A stretch of 64,000 nt of DNA from Candidatus Heimdallarchaeota archaeon (GCA_016840095.1 JAEOSZ010000066.1:55850-119849); one strand, 5' to 3'; positions 60,522 to 63,819 are shown, counted from the stretch's first letter. Program-made: numbers and translations. Notes: generated by a model not told the origin, from the letters alone.

Positions 60522-60548
60522 ATGTAAAACTACAGTCTACGGCCTCTA
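60522..60548 (-). repeat. Remnant of rps11 3' end, distal copy (27-bp direct repeat; encodes RGRRL*)
   Basis: atgtaaaactacagtctacggcctcta is identical to 61353-61379. Confidence 0.92.
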
Positions 60549-61276
60549 TATCTTTTAAAATAAACCACAACCACCATCAAAGGTACCACCACTAAAAAAC
60601 TGAAAATTGAATTATTGGTCGTGCTTGTTTCTGAAGGAGTGTAGATATCTACATTACCTATGGTTATATTATCAAAATAACTTATTTGTCCCATAGAGTA
60701 ATCTCCTCCACCAATTGGATAATTTATTAGTTGTACGTATAATATGGTTTCTGGTACACTTCCGAAAATTTGCAAATAAGCATCATGTAGGTTGATGGTA
60801 TGATTATGCCATACATCTATACTTTCTCCATAATATTCTATAACTCCTTGATCTGTCGTATTAATGAAATGACCAGAGAAATATGAGTAAATGTAGAGGT
60901 GTTTGTCTTCCGTACCTCTTACTCTGATTCCTACATAAGCTCCCTCTTTGTTAGGGAACATCCACTGAATATTCAAGAATGAATCATTTCTCAGATCTAT
61001 TGCTATATCTTTTGTATTGAAAGCATAAGTGCAGAAAGTATTTCCAACCATCTTTGCTACAGAACCTTCTGGATGTTCAGCAATTGTAAAATTGGAACCT
61101 GTGGTTGTTTTATCCATTACCCATCCATCTAAATTATCCTCAAAATCAAAGATATAGGCATAAGAGGGTGGAATTGAATAAGCTAATTGTACAATCAACA
61201 TCAAGAGTAAAACAACAGTAAGAAAACTACTAGATAATTTAACGAAAGGATTAGTCCTTTTTTTCATGCAAACCAT
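60530..61276 (-). CDS. Secreted/membrane-anchored beta-sandwich protein whose C-terminus (RGRRL*) is supplied by the rps11 remnant
   Basis: Signal peptide, FDFE...GW and YFDNI motifs, S/T linker, TM and basic tail. Confidence 0.75.
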   Translation of the reverse strand: MVCMKKRTNPFVKLSSSFLTVVLLLMLIVQLAYSIPPSYAYIFDFEDNLDGWVMDKTTTGSNFTIAEHPEGSVAKMVGNTFCTYAFNTKDIAIDLRNDSFLNIQWMFPNKEGAYVGIRVRGTEDKHLYIYSYFSGHFINTTDQGVIEYYGESIDVWHNHTINLHDAYLQIFGSVPETILYVQLINYPIGGGDYSMGQISYFDNITIGNVDIYTPSETSTTNNSIFSFLVVVPLMVVVVYFKRYRGRRL

Positions 61277-61352
61277 ACAACTATCTCATATACACTTTTG
61301 AAGTTTATCCCTTTAAAAAATATAAAAACAAGTAAAGTAAAAAATGTGTAAA

Positions 61353-61380
61353 ATGTAAAACTACAGTCTACGGCCTCTAC
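61353..61380 (-). repeat. Remnant of rps11 3' end, proximal copy
   Basis: 61361-61380 (ctacagtctacggcctctac) matches the rps11 end at 63067-63086 (ttacattctacggcctctac) at 18 of 20 positions. Confidence 0.92.
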
Positions 61381-62522
61381 AGAAGCGTTTGTTTTTCGTA
61401 CTCAATCCCTTTCTTCAGTAGTTGTATTTTCATGACTAGATTATCCACAATTTCTTGTTTCTCTTCTGTTTTCTTTTCCTTTAATCCAGAGATAATCTCT
61501 TGACTTGCTTTAGCAATTATTCTTTCTTCCTCTTCAAACATCCCTTCCGCTTTCCCATACAGGCACCAGAACTCCACCCTCTCCGCCACTTTCGGATACA
61601 CTTTCAAATCCTTCTCCTTGAATATCGCTTGAGTAGATCTCTTAGCATCGATGATTCTTTTCGTATTATTTTCGTAGTATACAACTATTTCAGGTTGAAT
61701 CCAAGACTGTTCTTCAAGTTCAGGAGTATCTATTTTAGGTTTCCATTTCCAATCTAAACCATCTAACAAAACCTCAGCTATCTCTTTACACAGCTCTTCC
61801 CACTTGTAAGCAGTAGTATTAGTAAACCAACAAGCTTCAGCTTCTTTATGTCTATAGAGATGACTAGGATCAGCAAAACCTCTACCACAATCCTCACAAA
61901 CAAAAGGTTTCTCATCAGTATGCATGGCTATGATATGTAACTTCAGTCCTCGAGCATGAGGAAATGCAGAATCACATTCTTCACAAGCATAGGGTCGATG
62001 GTTTTGATGAACAACTCGAACATGGTCATTAAGATGACTGCGAAGTTTGAAGGCAAAACCACATTCTTCACAAACATATTGCCGTTGGTCTGTGTGAATA
62101 GCGGTAATATGTTCTTTCAAGTGTTGAGGAAGTTTGAAAGCATCTCCACATTCCTTACAAATGTGAGGACGAAGATTTTGATGAACCGATTTAATGTGAC
62201 GTTCCAGATTATCTTTTCGAAGGAATTTATCATCACAAAGAGAGCATTTGAAAGTTTTTTCTTGATTATGAACGGAATTAACATGGCGTCTGAGAGAAGC
62301 AAGTTGAGTAAATGATTCATTGCAAATCTCACAAGAATACTTAATGCCAAGATGTTTTTCCTTGATATGTCTATCAAGAATATCTTTACGTTTAGTAGAA
62401 AAAGAACAATGAGGGCACTCAAAAGGTTTTACGGTAGAATGAACAGAATCTTGATGACGTTTAAGATTGGACTTTCGAGTAAATTTCTTCTCACATTGAT
62501 TGCATTCAAAACTTGTACTCAT
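61377..62522 (-). CDS. 8x C2H2 zinc-finger array fused to a putative PD-(D/E)xK nuclease domain
   Basis: Seven C2H2 fingers and one C2HC finger with TDEKP/QNxRP-type linkers, followed by KWEELC..IA (helix Glu), QPEI and IIDAKRS. Confidence 0.85.
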   Translation of the reverse strand: MSTSFECNQCEKKFTRKSNLKRHQDSVHSTVKPFECPHCSFSTKRKDILDRHIKEKHLGIKYSCEICNESFTQLASLRRHVNSVHNQEKTFKCSLCDDKFLRKDNLERHIKSVHQNLRPHICKECGDAFKLPQHLKEHITAIHTDQRQYVCEECGFAFKLRSHLNDHVRVVHQNHRPYACEECDSAFPHARGLKLHIIAMHTDEKPFVCEDCGRGFADPSHLYRHKEAEACWFTNTTAYKWEELCKEIAEVLLDGLDWKWKPKIDTPELEEQSWIQPEIVVYYENNTKRIIDAKRSTQAIFKEKDLKVYPKVAERVEFWCLYGKAEGMFEEEERIIAKASQEIISGLKEKKTEEKQEIVDNLVMKIQLLKKGIEYEKQTLL

Positions 62523-62525
62523 CTT

Positions 62526-62975
62526 TCATTCTTCCTTTATAGAATGTATTAACCTCATATGATCTTTCAGATGATGAGGTAGTTTGAAAGATTCATCACA
62601 GATTGCACAGATATGGGGTCTAATATTCTGATGAACACCTCTAATATGTCTTTGAAGACTATCTTTTCTTTTGAAAGATGCATCACATTGATGACATTCG
62701 AAACTCGCTGACTTGTTATGTACCGAATTTAGATGTCTGCTTAGATGAGATTGTTGTTGGAAAGATTCCTCACAATAGTTGCACTTGTACATTCGTTGTT
62801 TTTCATGAACTTGCCTGATATGACGACCAAGATTATCTTTTCTAGAAGTTGTAAAATCACATAAATTGCAGAAATAAACAGTTTTTGATTTATGTACAGA
62901 GTTAATGTGTCTATTCAATGAATCCTTTCTTGTAAAAGTCTTTTTACATTTATCACAAGAAAATCTGTTACTCAT
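62526..62975 (-). CDS. 5x C2H2 zinc-finger protein without a nuclease domain (paralog of fingers 1-5 of the adjacent gene)
   Basis: Five CxxC-x12-HxxxxH units with helices RKDSLNR, RKDNLGR, QQSHLSR, RKDSLQR and LPHHLKD. Confidence 0.92.
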   Translation of the reverse strand: MSNRFSCDKCKKTFTRKDSLNRHINSVHKSKTVYFCNLCDFTTSRKDNLGRHIRQVHEKQRMYKCNYCEESFQQQSHLSRHLNSVHNKSASFECHQCDASFKRKDSLQRHIRGVHQNIRPHICAICDESFKLPHHLKDHMRLIHSIKEE

Positions 62976-63005
62976 TTGGTATCAACTATATATCAAGAAA
63001 ACGGA

Positions 63006-63012
63006 ATATAAA
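63006..63012 (-). promoter_or_regulatory. TATA box for the zinc-finger operon
   Basis: TTTATAT on the minus strand, ~31-37 nt upstream of the ATG at 62975. Confidence 0.45.
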
Positions 63013-63024
63013 CCCAAATAATAC

Positions 63025-63048
63025 AAAATAAAAAAATAAATAAAAAAA
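63025..63048 (-). terminator. Oligo-T terminator downstream of rps11
   Basis: T-runs on the minus strand ~20-40 nt after the rps11 stop codon. Confidence 0.45.
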
Positions 63049-63066
63049 GGTAAAAGTGCAGAATAT

Positions 63067-63819
63067 TTACATTCTACGGCCTCTACGGCCACCTTTGCGC
63101 CTACAGCCATCGTGCGGGAGAGGTGTCACATCTTCTAGTCTTAGTATTCTCATCCCTGACCTCTTTAGTGCTCTTAATGCTGCTTGTGTTCCTGGTCCTG
63201 GAGTCCTGTTCTTATGTCCTCCTGGAGCTCTATATCGCACATACAGTTGATACACACCTTTTGATTGTGCTTCTTGTGCTGCTGCGTTAGCTGCTTTCAT
63301 TGCTGCGTAAGGGCTTGATTCATTTCTGTCTGCTTTAACGAACATTCCTCCGCTTTTACGACTGAAGGTTTCAGCGCCAGAGATGTCGGTGATGTGAACG
63401 ATTGTATCATTGTAACTGGAAAAGATATGAGCAACACCATATTTAGAATCTCTTCTTCTGGTTCTAGCTCTTGCTTCAGAATCAGGTTTTTTCTCCTCTG
63501 CAGCTTTTTCATCTTTAGGAGCGTCTTCCTTAGGTTTCTCTTCTTTAGCTTTGGTTTCTTTGGCATCTGCTTTGGGTTTATCTTCCTTAGGCTTGTCTTC
63601 CTTAGGCTTGTCTTCCTTGTCTTCTTTAGCTTTAGTCTCTTTAGGTTTCTTTGTCTCAGCTTTCTTTTCTTCCTTAGGAGGCTCTGGTATATCTTCTTTT
63701 TTAGCAGTAGTCTTTTTCTCTTTCTTAGGAGCTTCAACTTTCTCTTCTGCTTTAGGAGTTTCAGTCTTTTCCTCTTTCTTCTTAGTTGGTTCTTTCTTTT
63801 CTTTTTTATCTTCGCTCAT
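63067..63819 (-). CDS. rps11: 30S ribosomal protein S11 (uS11) with long K/E/P-rich N-terminal extension
   Basis: [35 protein letters not shown] and [21 protein letters not shown] motifs; AGGTGA SD at 63824-63829. Confidence 0.96.
63111..63125 (+). promoter_or_regulatory. Predicted binding site of the 5-finger protein inside rps11 (CGT GCG GGA GAG GTG)
   Basis: The C2H2 code for F5..F1 gives CGT GYG GGA GAG GYG; the sequence here is cgtgcgggagaggtg. Confidence 0.75.

What the first reader, a model, noticed from the sequence alone, without database searches (positions are those of the whole stretch)
60522..63086. Three copies of the rps11 3' end mark serial insertions at a ribosomal protein gene
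SEEN: a 27-bp perfect direct repeat lies at 60522-60548 and 61353-61379, and its core matches the live rps11 end (63067-63086) at 18/20. The remnants encode RGRRL-TAG while the live gene ends RGRRM-TAA. ESTABLISHED: eukaryotic uS11 ends in GRRGRRL. INFERENCE: RGRRL* is the ancestral end, displaced by at least two successive insertions. rps11 would thus act as an integration hotspot with no integrase in view. rpoD, which commonly follows rps11 in archaea, is not present downstream in this window.
Basis: partly seen in the sequence, partly recalled or inferred. Interest (0 to 1): 0.8.

Follow-up and report, generated by a model that had tools for sequence, protein, structure and literature searches.

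The report
Insertion scars beside a zinc-finger nuclease
The repeated ends of ribosomal protein gene rps11 in this Heimdall-group Asgard archaeon are real scars of DNA insertions that need no integrase; the oldest insertion carries a gene fusing eight zinc fingers to a predicted DNA-cutting domain, which probably spreads like a homing endonuclease, though cutting has not been shown.

Summary
A perfect 27-nt direct repeat (60522-60548, 61353-61379) shares its core with the live rps11 end. These are the only three copies in the 3.44-Mb assembly.

- Serial insertion without an integrase is supported. 12 of 22 same-genus genomes carry 1-2 such remnants, and one (G018) has the empty site.
- RGRRL is not ancestral. 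Every rps11 end read (29 genomes of the order) is RGRRM or RGRRQ, and the closest relative's remnant still reads ATG.
- The absence of rpoD is order-wide and unrelated.

The old insertion carries a five-finger C2H2 gene and an eight-finger C2H2 protein.
- Family members sit in two further inserts flanked by duplicated gene ends, each with empty sites in relatives.
- The nuclease tree conflicts with host trees (AU p 3e-5).
- Among close relatives the last 141 nt of rps11 differ 7.8 times more than the rest.

The second insertion is an orphan 248-aa membrane protein gene, unique to this genome, which split and duplicated the remnant.

A caveat applies. Nuclease-free cassettes with duplicated gene ends exist elsewhere in this genome, so general break repair is a serious rival.

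The scan found this cassette before in related genomes. One such report was later marked in doubt.

The parts
63067..63819 (-). rps11 (uS11), 250 aa, with a roughly 120-aa Lys/Glu-rich N-terminal extension. This is the live gene, ending RGRRM-TAA.
   Evidence: PF00411 E 5.6e-43 over residues 128-246. Orthologues are 92-99% identical across the genus.
63070..63210 (-). The last 141 coding nt of rps11, a recombinant (co-converted) tract next to the insertion point.
   Evidence: Among six closely related species this tract differs by 15.6%, against 2.0% for the preceding 240 nt. In distant pairs the two parts differ equally, 14.0 vs 14.4%.
63102..63125 (-). The most polymorphic patch of rps11 (codons TPLPHDGC, mostly synonymous changes). 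It is a candidate zinc-finger target, weakly supported.
   Evidence: 24-nt windows starting 63-45 nt before the stop show 6-6.7 differences against a median of 3.2, with 20 distinct sequences in 22 genomes. A crude finger code places its best match here for 12 of 18 nucleases, but the individual shuffle p values are 0.05-0.4.
63067..63086 (-). Copy A: the live rps11 3' end, comprising stop codon TAA and the last codons.
62976..63066 (-). Intergenic leader of the cassette: a T-rich stretch after rps11 and the upstream region of the first zinc-finger gene.
   Evidence: It is collinear at 88% identity with G009 from 6 nt after the rps11 stop to the end of the nuclease gene. It differs from the empty-site intergenic region of G018 beyond about +41.
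62526..62975 (-). 149-aa protein with five C2H2 zinc fingers and no nuclease domain. It is a paralogue of fingers 1-5 of the neighbouring nuclease.
   Evidence: PF00096 E 1e-29. It is 52% identical to residues 1-144 of the 381-aa protein, E 6e-51. A short zinc-finger gene lies upstream of the long one in about half of the relatives.
61377..62522 (-). 381-aa protein with eight C2H2 zinc fingers (residues 1-225) fused to a C-terminal PD-(D/E)xK nuclease domain (residues about 222-381, coded by 61380-61859). It is single-copy in this genome.
   Evidence: Zinc-finger Pfam hits. The C-terminal domain has no hit in Pfam, NCBIfam, PHROGs or PADLOC. AF2 model: pLDDT 87, pTM 0.83, alpha-beta-beta-beta-alpha-beta topology. 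Fold matches are almost all restriction-endonuclease-fold nucleases. Conserved residues are E21, P56, E/D57, D/E71 and K73. One copy in G000.
61325..61379 (-). Copy B: the displaced remnant of the rps11 end (17 nt of coding sequence, TAG, and about 35 nt of former downstream sequence). The perfect 27-nt repeat is 61353-61379. The TAG stop of the nuclease gene is its first three bases.
   Evidence: It is 85% identical to the single remnant of G009.
60549..61352 (-). Second, recent insert of 804 nt, carrying one gene (60530-61276, 248 aa). The protein has an N-terminal and a C-terminal hydrophobic segment. Its last five codons and stop (RGRRL*) come from copy C.
   Evidence: The ORF is. It has no Pfam or PADLOC family. 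No homologue was found in 46 other genomes of the order. It interrupts a remnant-plus-intergenic region that is continuous in G009.
60522..60548 (-). Copy C: the second copy of the remnant, duplicated when the 248-aa gene was inserted. It continues into the upstream region of the next gene.
   Evidence: Window 59983-60547 matches G009's remnant and the following gene at 84%.
59986..60423 (-). 145-aa protein of unknown family (F5). It usually lies directly next to an rps11 remnant in relatives.
   Evidence: It follows a remnant in G009, G007, G021, G017 and G010, and precedes one in G001. In G010 it is flanked by two remnants. No Pfam family.

Best explanation
The three copies are one live rps11 end and two copies of a displaced end. 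They were left by at least two break-repair insertions, not by an integrase.

Step 1 is old. It is present in 20 of the 24 other genomes of the genus searched, and the cassette has since been exchanged between species. A cassette entered rps11 about 17-27 nt before its stop. It brought its own copy of the gene end, a terminator-like T-rich stretch, one or two C2H2 zinc-finger genes and sometimes cargo. The native end was pushed downstream as a remnant.

The constant gene encodes eight zinc fingers fused to a PD-(D/E)xK nuclease. I infer that it cuts rps11 alleles that lack the cassette or carry a different version. Repair from a cassette-bearing copy would then install the cassette and overwrite the last 140 nt or so of rps11. 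This is how free-standing homing endonucleases and mitochondrial mobile ORFs work.

Step 2 is recent and found only in this genome. An orphan 248-aa membrane protein gene was inserted into the remnant. This duplicated 27 nt of it and fused the gene to the remnant's last five codons. Before step 2 the remnant's ATG had mutated to CTG.

Shown: the repeats, the empty and filled sites, the nuclease fold and motif, the tree conflict, and the mosaic rps11 end. Inferred: that the protein cuts DNA, what it cuts, and that it caused either insertion.
For: (1) Empty versus filled sites. G018 aligns to G013 and G012 in two pieces that overlap by 60-65 nt (rps11 -18/-26 to +39/+41) around 2.3-kb inserts. 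12 of 22 loci carry remnants.

(2) Nuclease. A confident model (pLDDT 87) matches restriction-fold nucleases by two aligners. Foldseek's top hits are the R2 endonuclease domain (E 4.9e-4), EcoO109I, McrC and Bax1. VIA-align gives AF1548 Z 8.7, Can1 8.5, Can2 8.0 and FokI 6.6. The motif E..P(E/D)..(D/E)xK is conserved across 41 diverse sequences.

(3) The same nuclease domain sits in two other inserts bounded by duplicated gene ends, each with empty sites in relatives.
- G012:C175 has a C2H2 array plus nuclease, with a roughly 100-nt repeat of a FixX-like gene's 3' end.
- G008:C143 has a DUF4379 array plus nuclease, with a 92-nt repeat of a PIG-L gene's 5' part. There the live copy is heavily recoded at synonymous sites and the remnant is native-like.

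(4) Another family member carries homing-endonuclease-associated repeats, PF18780.

(5) Distribution is patchy: 20/24 in the genus, 0/6 in sister genera including closed genomes, and 27/400 in the phylum.

(6) Horizontal movement. The nuclease tree conflicts with three concordant host markers. AU p is 2.7e-5, and 6e-4 and 3e-54 for the reverse tests. Nuclease p-distances are 0.19-0.31 among hosts that differ by 0.04-0.08.

(7) Flank mosaic. The last 141 nt of rps11 are 7.8 times more divergent than the rest among close relatives. There is a matching peak just after the remnant, and the polymorphism maximum lies 30-60 nt before the stop.

(8) No recombinase was found among the island gene families tested. 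The whole genome has one weak PF00589 hit.

(9) The 248-aa gene is an orphan, and it splits a region that is continuous in G009.
Against: No cleavage, binding site or homing event has been observed. The nuclease call rests on a predicted fold with middling scores (Z below 9, TM below 0.5) plus a motif.

The second insert carries no nuclease. This genome also holds other single-gene cassettes without any nuclease, flanked by 49-77-nt duplications. In at least two of them the repeat is a neighbour gene's 3' end. One (C11) has empty sites in G012, G013 and G024. A nuclease is therefore not required for this kind of scar.

Elevated flank divergence and tree conflict also arise around any island exchanged by ordinary homologous recombination.

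Five other loci of the nuclease family with both flanks available showed no convincing flanking repeat within 2.5 kb.

In this window the live end and the remnant differ by only 2 of 19-20 nt, so self-immunity by recoding is not evident here.

The groups for the AU tests were named after the trees had been seen.

Earlier scan reports of the same reading on relatives include one later marked 'in doubt'.
Confidence: 0.58

Rival explanations
1. General break repair anchored on a conserved gene, i.e. homology-facilitated illegitimate recombination or single-crossover integration of short-homology circles. Incoming DNA recombines homologously inside the highly conserved rps11 and joins illegitimately on the far side, which duplicates the gene end. 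The zinc-finger nuclease would be merely cargo (a defence gene or regulator) of a variable island and would not drive insertion.
For: Nuclease-free orphan cassettes flanked by 49-77-nt duplications occur elsewhere in G000. In at least two of them the repeat is a neighbour gene's 3' end. The C11 site has single-copy empty sites in three relatives and different secreted-protein inserts in others. The recent 248-aa insert has no nuclease. Cargo between the nuclease and the remnant is defence-like and varies: YaaC-like, PLD/DrmC-like, NERD, Imm5-like, HIT. The left edges of the remnants vary from -27 to -9. Flank mosaicism and tree conflict are expected for any exchanged island.
Against: The nuclease family is strongly enriched in such scars. 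Three distinct loci have a family member abutting the live gene end, against only 27 local repeat pairs in 3.4 Mb, several of which are tandem paralogues. In G008 the insert holds essentially only the nuclease gene and a recoded gene start. The nuclease module is combined with different DNA-reading arrays at different target genes, one with homing-endonuclease repeats. This fits a self-targeting selfish gene better than passive cargo.
Confidence: 0.28
2. The repeats are attachment sites (attL, attR and hybrids) of small integrative elements moved by a site-specific integrase encoded elsewhere in the genome. Tandem accretion at the 3' end of a ribosomal protein gene would follow, as with ICE/CIME arrays in streptococci.
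For: Direct repeats of 27-100 nt that copy a gene's 3' end, tandem arrangement of cassettes, and presence/absence polymorphism are classical att-site features. A -26/-27 left boundary and a +41 right boundary recur in several genomes.
Against: No tyrosine or serine recombinase was found in the island gene families tested. The 89%-complete genome has a single weak PF00589 match, 27.5 bits against a cut-off of 27.1. Conservative site-specific recombination does not produce 140-nt recoded tracts in the flanking gene. Three different target genes would need three specificities.
Confidence: 0.08
3. The 27-nt repeat pair is an assembly artefact, for example two strain variants joined at a shared short sequence, and the similarity to rps11 is incidental.
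For: The genome is a metagenome bin (7.8% contamination). The 248-aa gene has no relative. Reads could not be checked.
Against: The flanks on both sides of the 804-nt segment are collinear with G009. The gene reads in frame into the remnant. Double remnants that share derived changes also occur in G010 and G001. 12 independent assemblies show rps11 remnants.
Confidence: 0.03

Closest known systems
Mobile endonuclease ORFs (mORFs) of fungal mitochondria: Allomyces macrogynus atp6; Glomus atp6, atp9, cox2 and nad3 (PMC3630166)
   Same: An endonuclease gene is inserted at the end of a conserved gene. It brings a replacement copy of that end, and the native end is left downstream as a remnant. The replacement copy diverges mainly at synonymous sites, which was seen here at the PIG-L locus. 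There is evidence of horizontal transfer.
   Different: The host here is an archaeal chromosome, not an organelle. The nuclease is a new PD-(D/E)xK family with C2H2 arrays, not LAGLIDADG or GIY-YIG. The duplicated stretch at rps11 is short (17-27 coding nt). The cassette carries extra cargo and a nuclease-free finger paralogue. A second, nuclease-free cassette has re-used the remnant.
Free-standing homing endonucleases of T4-like phages (Seg and Mob; intronless homing with co-conversion of flanking markers). This comparison rests on my own knowledge; see also the abstract of PMC10055350.
   Same: An intergenic nuclease gene sits next to a conserved gene. There is presence/absence polymorphism, elevated exchange of flanking sequence, and a tree that conflicts with the host.
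   Different: The phage enzymes are GIY-YIG or HNH. They leave no duplicated gene end and use no zinc-finger arrays.
Engineered zinc-finger nucleases (C2H2 array fused to the FokI cleavage domain)
   Same: The architecture is the same: a tandem C2H2 array followed by a restriction-fold cleavage domain. FokI's cleavage domain is among the fold matches (Z 6.6).
   Different: This is a natural protein with eight fingers. Dimerisation, spacing and cutting are unknown.
R2 non-LTR retrotransposon protein (N-terminal zinc finger/Myb, C-terminal restriction-like endonuclease)
   Same: Zinc-finger targeting is combined with a restriction-like endonuclease in a site-specific selfish element of the translation apparatus. 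It is the best Foldseek match (9dou, E 4.9e-4).
   Different: There is no reverse transcriptase here. The match is at fold level only (TM 0.45, 12% identity). No homology is claimed.
ICE/CIME accretion at the 3' ends of ribosomal protein and other housekeeping genes by tyrosine integrases. This comparison rests on my own knowledge; see also the abstract of PMC3715440.
   Same: Tandem elements are separated by direct repeats of a gene's 3' end.
   Different: No integrase is present. The flanking gene is mosaic rather than sharply joined.
Asgard Tn7-like transposons whose TniQ carries C2H2 fingers (bioRxiv 10.1101/2025.07.27.667033)
   Same: C2H2 arrays are used by an Asgard mobile element to pick a conserved target.
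   Different: No TniQ domain was found in the finger proteins and no TnsA/B/C-like gene in the island. The scar is a long duplication, not a 5-bp one.

Membership tests
PD-(D/E)xK (restriction endonuclease-like) nuclease superfamily | Core alpha-beta-beta-beta-alpha-beta fold | tested here: met
   The AF2 model (pLDDT 87, pTM 0.83) has H12-31, E36-39, E58-61, E67-75, H76-91 and E94-101. Fold hits are almost exclusively this superfamily by Foldseek and by VIA-align, top Z 8.7. The scores are middling.
PD-(D/E)xK (restriction endonuclease-like) nuclease superfamily | Catalytic signature: an acidic residue in helix 1, (P)D/E at the start of strand 2, and (D/E)xK in strand 3 | tested here: met
   E21, P56 (invariant), E/D57, D/E71 and K73 are conserved in 41 sequences down to 24% identity, and they fall on the expected elements.
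PD-(D/E)xK (restriction endonuclease-like) nuclease superfamily | Metal-dependent phosphodiester cleavage | not testable with these tools
   This needs a biochemical assay.
Homing endonuclease gene / mORF-type selfish cassette | Presence/absence polymorphism at the same site in close relatives | tested here: met
   At rps11, G018 is empty while G013 and G012 are filled. The FixX and PIG-L loci show the same contrast.
Homing endonuclease gene / mORF-type selfish cassette | A replacement copy of the host gene end plus a displaced native remnant | tested here: met
   Remnants occur in 12 of 22 loci. At the PIG-L locus the live copy is recoded and the remnant is native-like. In this window the live end and the remnant differ by only 2 nt.
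Homing endonuclease gene / mORF-type selfish cassette | Co-conversion of flanking markers and horizontal spread | tested here: met
   The rps11 3' tract shows a 7.8-fold divergence excess. AU tests reject congruence with the host trees. Ordinary island exchange could give the same pattern.
Homing endonuclease gene / mORF-type selfish cassette | The encoded enzyme cleaves the cassette-free allele at or near the insertion point | not testable with these tools
   A crude, from-memory finger code points to rps11 -56 to -33 for 12 of 18 nucleases, but it is not significant individually.
Integrase-mediated integrative element (att sites) | A tyrosine or serine recombinase in or acting on the element | tested here: not met
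   None was found among the island gene families tested. G000 has one borderline PF00589 hit on another contig. Action in trans is not excluded.
Integron-like cassette array | An IntI integrase, an attI site, and structured attC sites at cassette ends | tested here: not met
   There is no integrase. The repeats are copies of one gene end, with no palindromic attC-like structure and no terminator-like hairpin.
Tn7-like transposon with a C2H2 TniQ | A TniQ domain plus TnsA/B/C genes and short target duplications | tested here: not met
   Pfam finds only zinc-finger families in both finger proteins. No transposase genes adjoin them. The duplications are 27-100 nt.

The most novel reading that the evidence does not exclude
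Asgard archaea may harbour a family of natural modular site-specific nucleases. One PD-(D/E)xK cutting module is combined with interchangeable tandem DNA-reading arrays: eukaryote-style C2H2 fingers, DUF4379 treble-clef fingers, homing-endonuclease repeats, or HTH. These would home into the ends of conserved genes. Their displaced target remnants would stay recombinogenic and capture further genes, building integrase-free cassette arrays next to housekeeping genes. The nuclease-free five-finger paralogue could act as a shield or regulator of the resident site.
Probability: 0.3. Interest if true: 0.9.

Novelty: new variant of a known kind. Interest (0 to 1): 0.72.

Why it matters
If the protein cuts as predicted, it is a natural counterpart of engineered zinc-finger nucleases. 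It occurs in the archaeal group closest to eukaryotes and uses eukaryote-type C2H2 arrays for DNA targeting. That would show a prokaryotic, selfish use of tandem C2H2 fingers. It would also give a new cleavage domain and a natural set of finger arrays matched to known target genes (rps11, a FixX-like gene).

It would explain how an essential ribosomal gene end is repeatedly overwritten between species without harm. It would also explain how variable islands can grow beside housekeeping genes without integrases.

For annotation, the short rps11-like fragments and the mosaic 3' end of rps11 matter to anyone using ribosomal proteins as phylogenetic markers in these lineages.

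Tried and rejected
- RGRRL as the ancestral end: rejected.
- Displacement of rpoD by the insertions: rejected. rpoD is on contig C152, and no rpoD gene was among the ORFs found downstream of rps11 in the other-family loci read.
- A genome-wide dispersed repeat: rejected.
- First structure prediction, from 28 close sequences: low confidence (pLDDT 58), not used.
- Sequence-profile searches of the nuclease domain against Pfam, NCBIfam, PHROGs, PADLOC and PDB sequences: nothing significant.
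- Exact search of metagenome contigs for the 26-nt remnant: no match.
- Contexts of distant homologues by the look-up of encoding contigs: the contigs were too short to be informative.
- Genus-wide synonymous diversity of the last codons: raised, but confounded by the Arg codons, so inconclusive.
- Zinc-finger recognition-code reading of the target, and 'tuned away from own allele': there is a consistent register but a weak, non-independent signal, and the code was recalled from memory. Inconclusive (one search had an indexing error, corrected).
- Bacterial-type promoter and terminator scan: nothing above shuffles, and it is not suited to archaea.
- Literature searches found no description of this nuclease family or of rps11-end cassettes in Asgard archaea.

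Full report
OBSERVATION. The minus strand of 59.9-63.9 kb carries, in order:
- rps11 (63067-63819)
- a 149-aa five-finger C2H2 gene (62526-62975)
- a 381-aa eight-finger C2H2 gene (61377-62522)
- a 248-aa gene (60530-61276)
- a 145-aa gene (59986-60423)

A perfect 27-nt direct repeat lies at 60522-60548 and 61353-61379. It has no other match with up to 3 mismatches and none in shuffles. Its 13-nt core recurs at 63073-63085 in the last codons of rps11. The whole assembly holds only these three copies. The window is the end of a 119.8-kb contig of a Heimdall-group bin; names attached to close homologues say Candidatus Heimdallarchaeota/Heimdallarchaeaceae.

WHAT RELATIVES SHOW. I fetched the rps11 neighbourhood from 21 other species of the genus.
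- All end rps11 in RGRRM. The eight genomes read from other families of the order end in RGRRM or RGRRQ, and no rpoD gene was among the ORFs found downstream of rps11 there. In this genome rpoD lies on contig C152. So RGRRL is not ancestral and rpoD is irrelevant.
- Gene content after rps11 is highly variable. A long C2H2 gene follows rps11 in 18 loci, with a second short one in about half.
- 12 loci carry one or two extra copies of the rps11 end, together with about 35-45 nt of its T-rich downstream sequence. These lie 1.6-7.4 kb downstream.
- G018 has rps11 followed directly by the thioesterase gene. It aligns to G013 and G012 in two pieces that overlap by 60-65 nt (rps11 -18/-26 to +39/+41) on either side of 2.3-kb inserts. 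This is a clean empty-versus-filled comparison.
- The closest relative, G009, is collinear with the window from rps11 to the stop of the nuclease gene (88%). It then has a HIT-family gene, a single remnant reading ...AAA ATG TAG, and the 145-aa gene.
- Both window remnants match that single remnant. The window's 804-nt segment with the 248-aa gene therefore sits inside a region that is continuous in G009.
- That gene has no homologue in 46 other genomes of the order.
- Because both window remnants share CTG and TAG, the ATG-to-CTG change arose in the displaced remnant before it was duplicated.

THE CONSTANT GENE IS A ZINC-FINGER NUCLEASE.
- The C-terminal 160 residues of the 381-aa protein are far better conserved than the fingers. 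They match no curated family.
- An exhaustive profile search found 67 representatives. In them the domain follows C2H2 arrays (some with TGEKP-type linkers), DUF4379 treble-clef arrays, HTH domains or, in one, homing-endonuclease-associated repeats.
- With a 41-sequence alignment the model is confident (pLDDT 87, pTM 0.83) and has alpha-beta-beta-beta-alpha-beta topology.
- Foldseek and an independent aligner both return almost only restriction-fold nucleases: the R2 endonuclease domain, EcoO109I, McrC, Bax1, AF1548 (Z 8.7), Can1/Can2, R.BspD6I and FokI.
- The conserved residues E21, P56-E/D57 and D/E71-x-K73 fall where the PD-(D/E)xK signature belongs.
- The scores are middling, so this is a well-supported prediction and not a proof.
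- The 149-aa protein is a nuclease-free paralogue of fingers 1-5 (52% identity).

IS THE CASSETTE MOBILE?
- The domain occurs in 20 of 24 species of the genus, in none of 6 genomes of sister genera (two of them closed), and sporadically elsewhere in the phylum (27 of 400).
- Two further loci hold a family member inside an insert bounded by a duplicated gene end.
  - In G012, a seven-finger nuclease plus an orphan gene are flanked by about 100 nt of a FixX-like gene's 3' end. The site is empty in six relatives, and it is filled with a degenerate nuclease in G014.
  - In G008, a DUF4379-array nuclease is flanked by 92 nt of a PIG-L gene's 5' part. The site is empty in five relatives. The live copy is heavily recoded at synonymous sites while the remnant matches the empty allele.
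- Three host markers (fixC, PIG-L, the 5' part of rps11) give concordant trees with a tight cluster of six species. The nuclease tree breaks that cluster apart.
  - AU p is 2.7e-5, and the reverse tests give 6e-4 and 3e-54.
  - Nuclease distances are 0.19-0.31 among hosts 0.04-0.08 apart.
  - The G024-G000 nuclease distance (0.127) is below the host distance (0.186). The groups were named after the trees had been seen.
- Within that cluster the first 240 nt of the rps11 core differ by 2.0% and the last 141 nt by 15.6%. In distant pairs the two parts differ equally.
- Divergence also peaks in the first 100 nt after the remnant.
- The most polymorphic 24-nt windows of the gene start 45-63 nt before the stop.
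- Together these findings point to repeated exchange of the cassette along with the adjoining end of rps11.

MECHANISM. The pattern matches mobile endonuclease ORFs of fungal mitochondria. There the element supplies a replacement gene end and leaves the native end as a remnant (PMC3630166). It also matches intronless homing of free-standing phage endonucleases. I therefore favour nuclease-driven break repair for the primary insertion. No recombinase was found among the island gene families tested, and the genome has only one borderline PF00589 hit.

A test of the idea that the fingers read rps11 was inconclusive. A recognition code recalled from memory put the best match at -56 to -33 (antisense) for 12 of 18 nucleases. 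Own alleles scored slightly worse than foreign ones. However, the individual p values were 0.05-0.4, and the nucleases are not independent of one another.

CONTROL AND MAIN CAVEAT. A scan of the whole genome for local direct repeats found only 27 pairs. Several are tandem paralogues. Four or five others are single-gene cassettes for secreted or membrane orphans. They have no nuclease and are flanked by 49-77-nt duplications. In at least two of them the repeat is a neighbour gene's 3' end. The one on C11 has empty sites with a single 66-nt copy in G012, G013 and G024, and different inserts in other species. A general route therefore makes the same scar without a resident nuclease; it could be homology on the conserved-gene side with an illegitimate join on the other. 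This route is the simplest account of the recent 248-aa insert, and it is a serious rival for the whole locus. Against it stands the strong enrichment of the nuclease family in such scars, and the G008 insert, which holds essentially only the nuclease.

EARLIER SCAN NOTES. After reaching the nuclease reading I looked up earlier notes. First readers and follow-up agents reached the same zinc-finger-nuclease cassette reading on this stretch and on six related genomes. One of those reports was later marked 'in doubt'. They are not counted as evidence.

VERDICT. The repeats are real insertion scars. The integrase-free serial-insertion idea holds, the ancestral-RGRRL idea does not, and the driver is probably a natural zinc-finger homing nuclease. 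Cleavage remains unshown.

Noticed in passing
G000 contigs C11:53870-54979, C163:157554-159287, C134:7567-8656, C45:90169-91019 (loci L166, L158, L157, L164): Other single-gene cassettes encode orphan secreted or membrane proteins and carry no nuclease. They are flanked by 49-77-nt direct repeats, which for C11 and C163 duplicate a neighbouring gene's 3' end. The C11 site is empty, with one 66-nt copy, in G012, G013 and G024, and it holds different secreted-protein genes in other species.
   Followed up: partly
L090 (G012:C175) 3869-6621: A second C2H2 (seven-finger, TGEKP-like linkers) nuclease plus a 415-aa orphan gene form a 2.55-kb insert. The insert is bounded by about 100 nt of the 3' end of a FixX-like ferredoxin gene. 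The site is empty in G008, G018, G010, G024, G013 and G000. G014:C170 has the same site filled with a truncated, stop-containing nuclease.
   Followed up: yes
L094 (G008:C143) 5787-8265: A nuclease with seven DUF4379 treble-clef fingers sits in a 2.3-kb insert that replaces the 5' end of a PIG-L deacetylase gene. The live copy is recoded at many synonymous sites and has a new N-terminus. The native start survives as a 92-nt remnant.
   Followed up: yes
window 63420-63819 and 63828-63998: rps11 has a roughly 120-aa Lys/Glu/Pro-rich repetitive N-terminal extension. The upstream gene (rps4 in relatives) ends in a low-complexity KPEV-type repeat plus a helix-hairpin-helix domain (PF14520). Many assemblies of the genus break within 1-1.5 kb upstream of rps11, probably because of these repeats.
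   Followed up: partly
L052 (G010:C56) around rps11 and the finger genes: In G010 the long finger gene is split by a stop between the fingers and the nuclease domain. The rps11 tail also has two non-synonymous changes (CRRKCGIRGRRM). This could be a decaying cassette or a low-quality assembly.
   Followed up: no
window 59986-60423 and relatives: The 145-aa protein of unknown family almost always adjoins an rps11 remnant, and in G010 it is flanked by two. It may be the original neighbour of rps11 or a cassette itself.
   Followed up: partly
window 59414-59956: A short AAA ATPase (180 aa, PF00004) belongs to the variable set of genes between rps11 and the thioesterase gene. It is present at different positions and orientations in relatives.
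   Followed up: no
L049 (G007:C68) 4743-5675: An IS481-type transposase (rve, PF00665) lies within the rps11 island of G007. It is the only transposase seen in any of the 22 islands.
   Followed up: no
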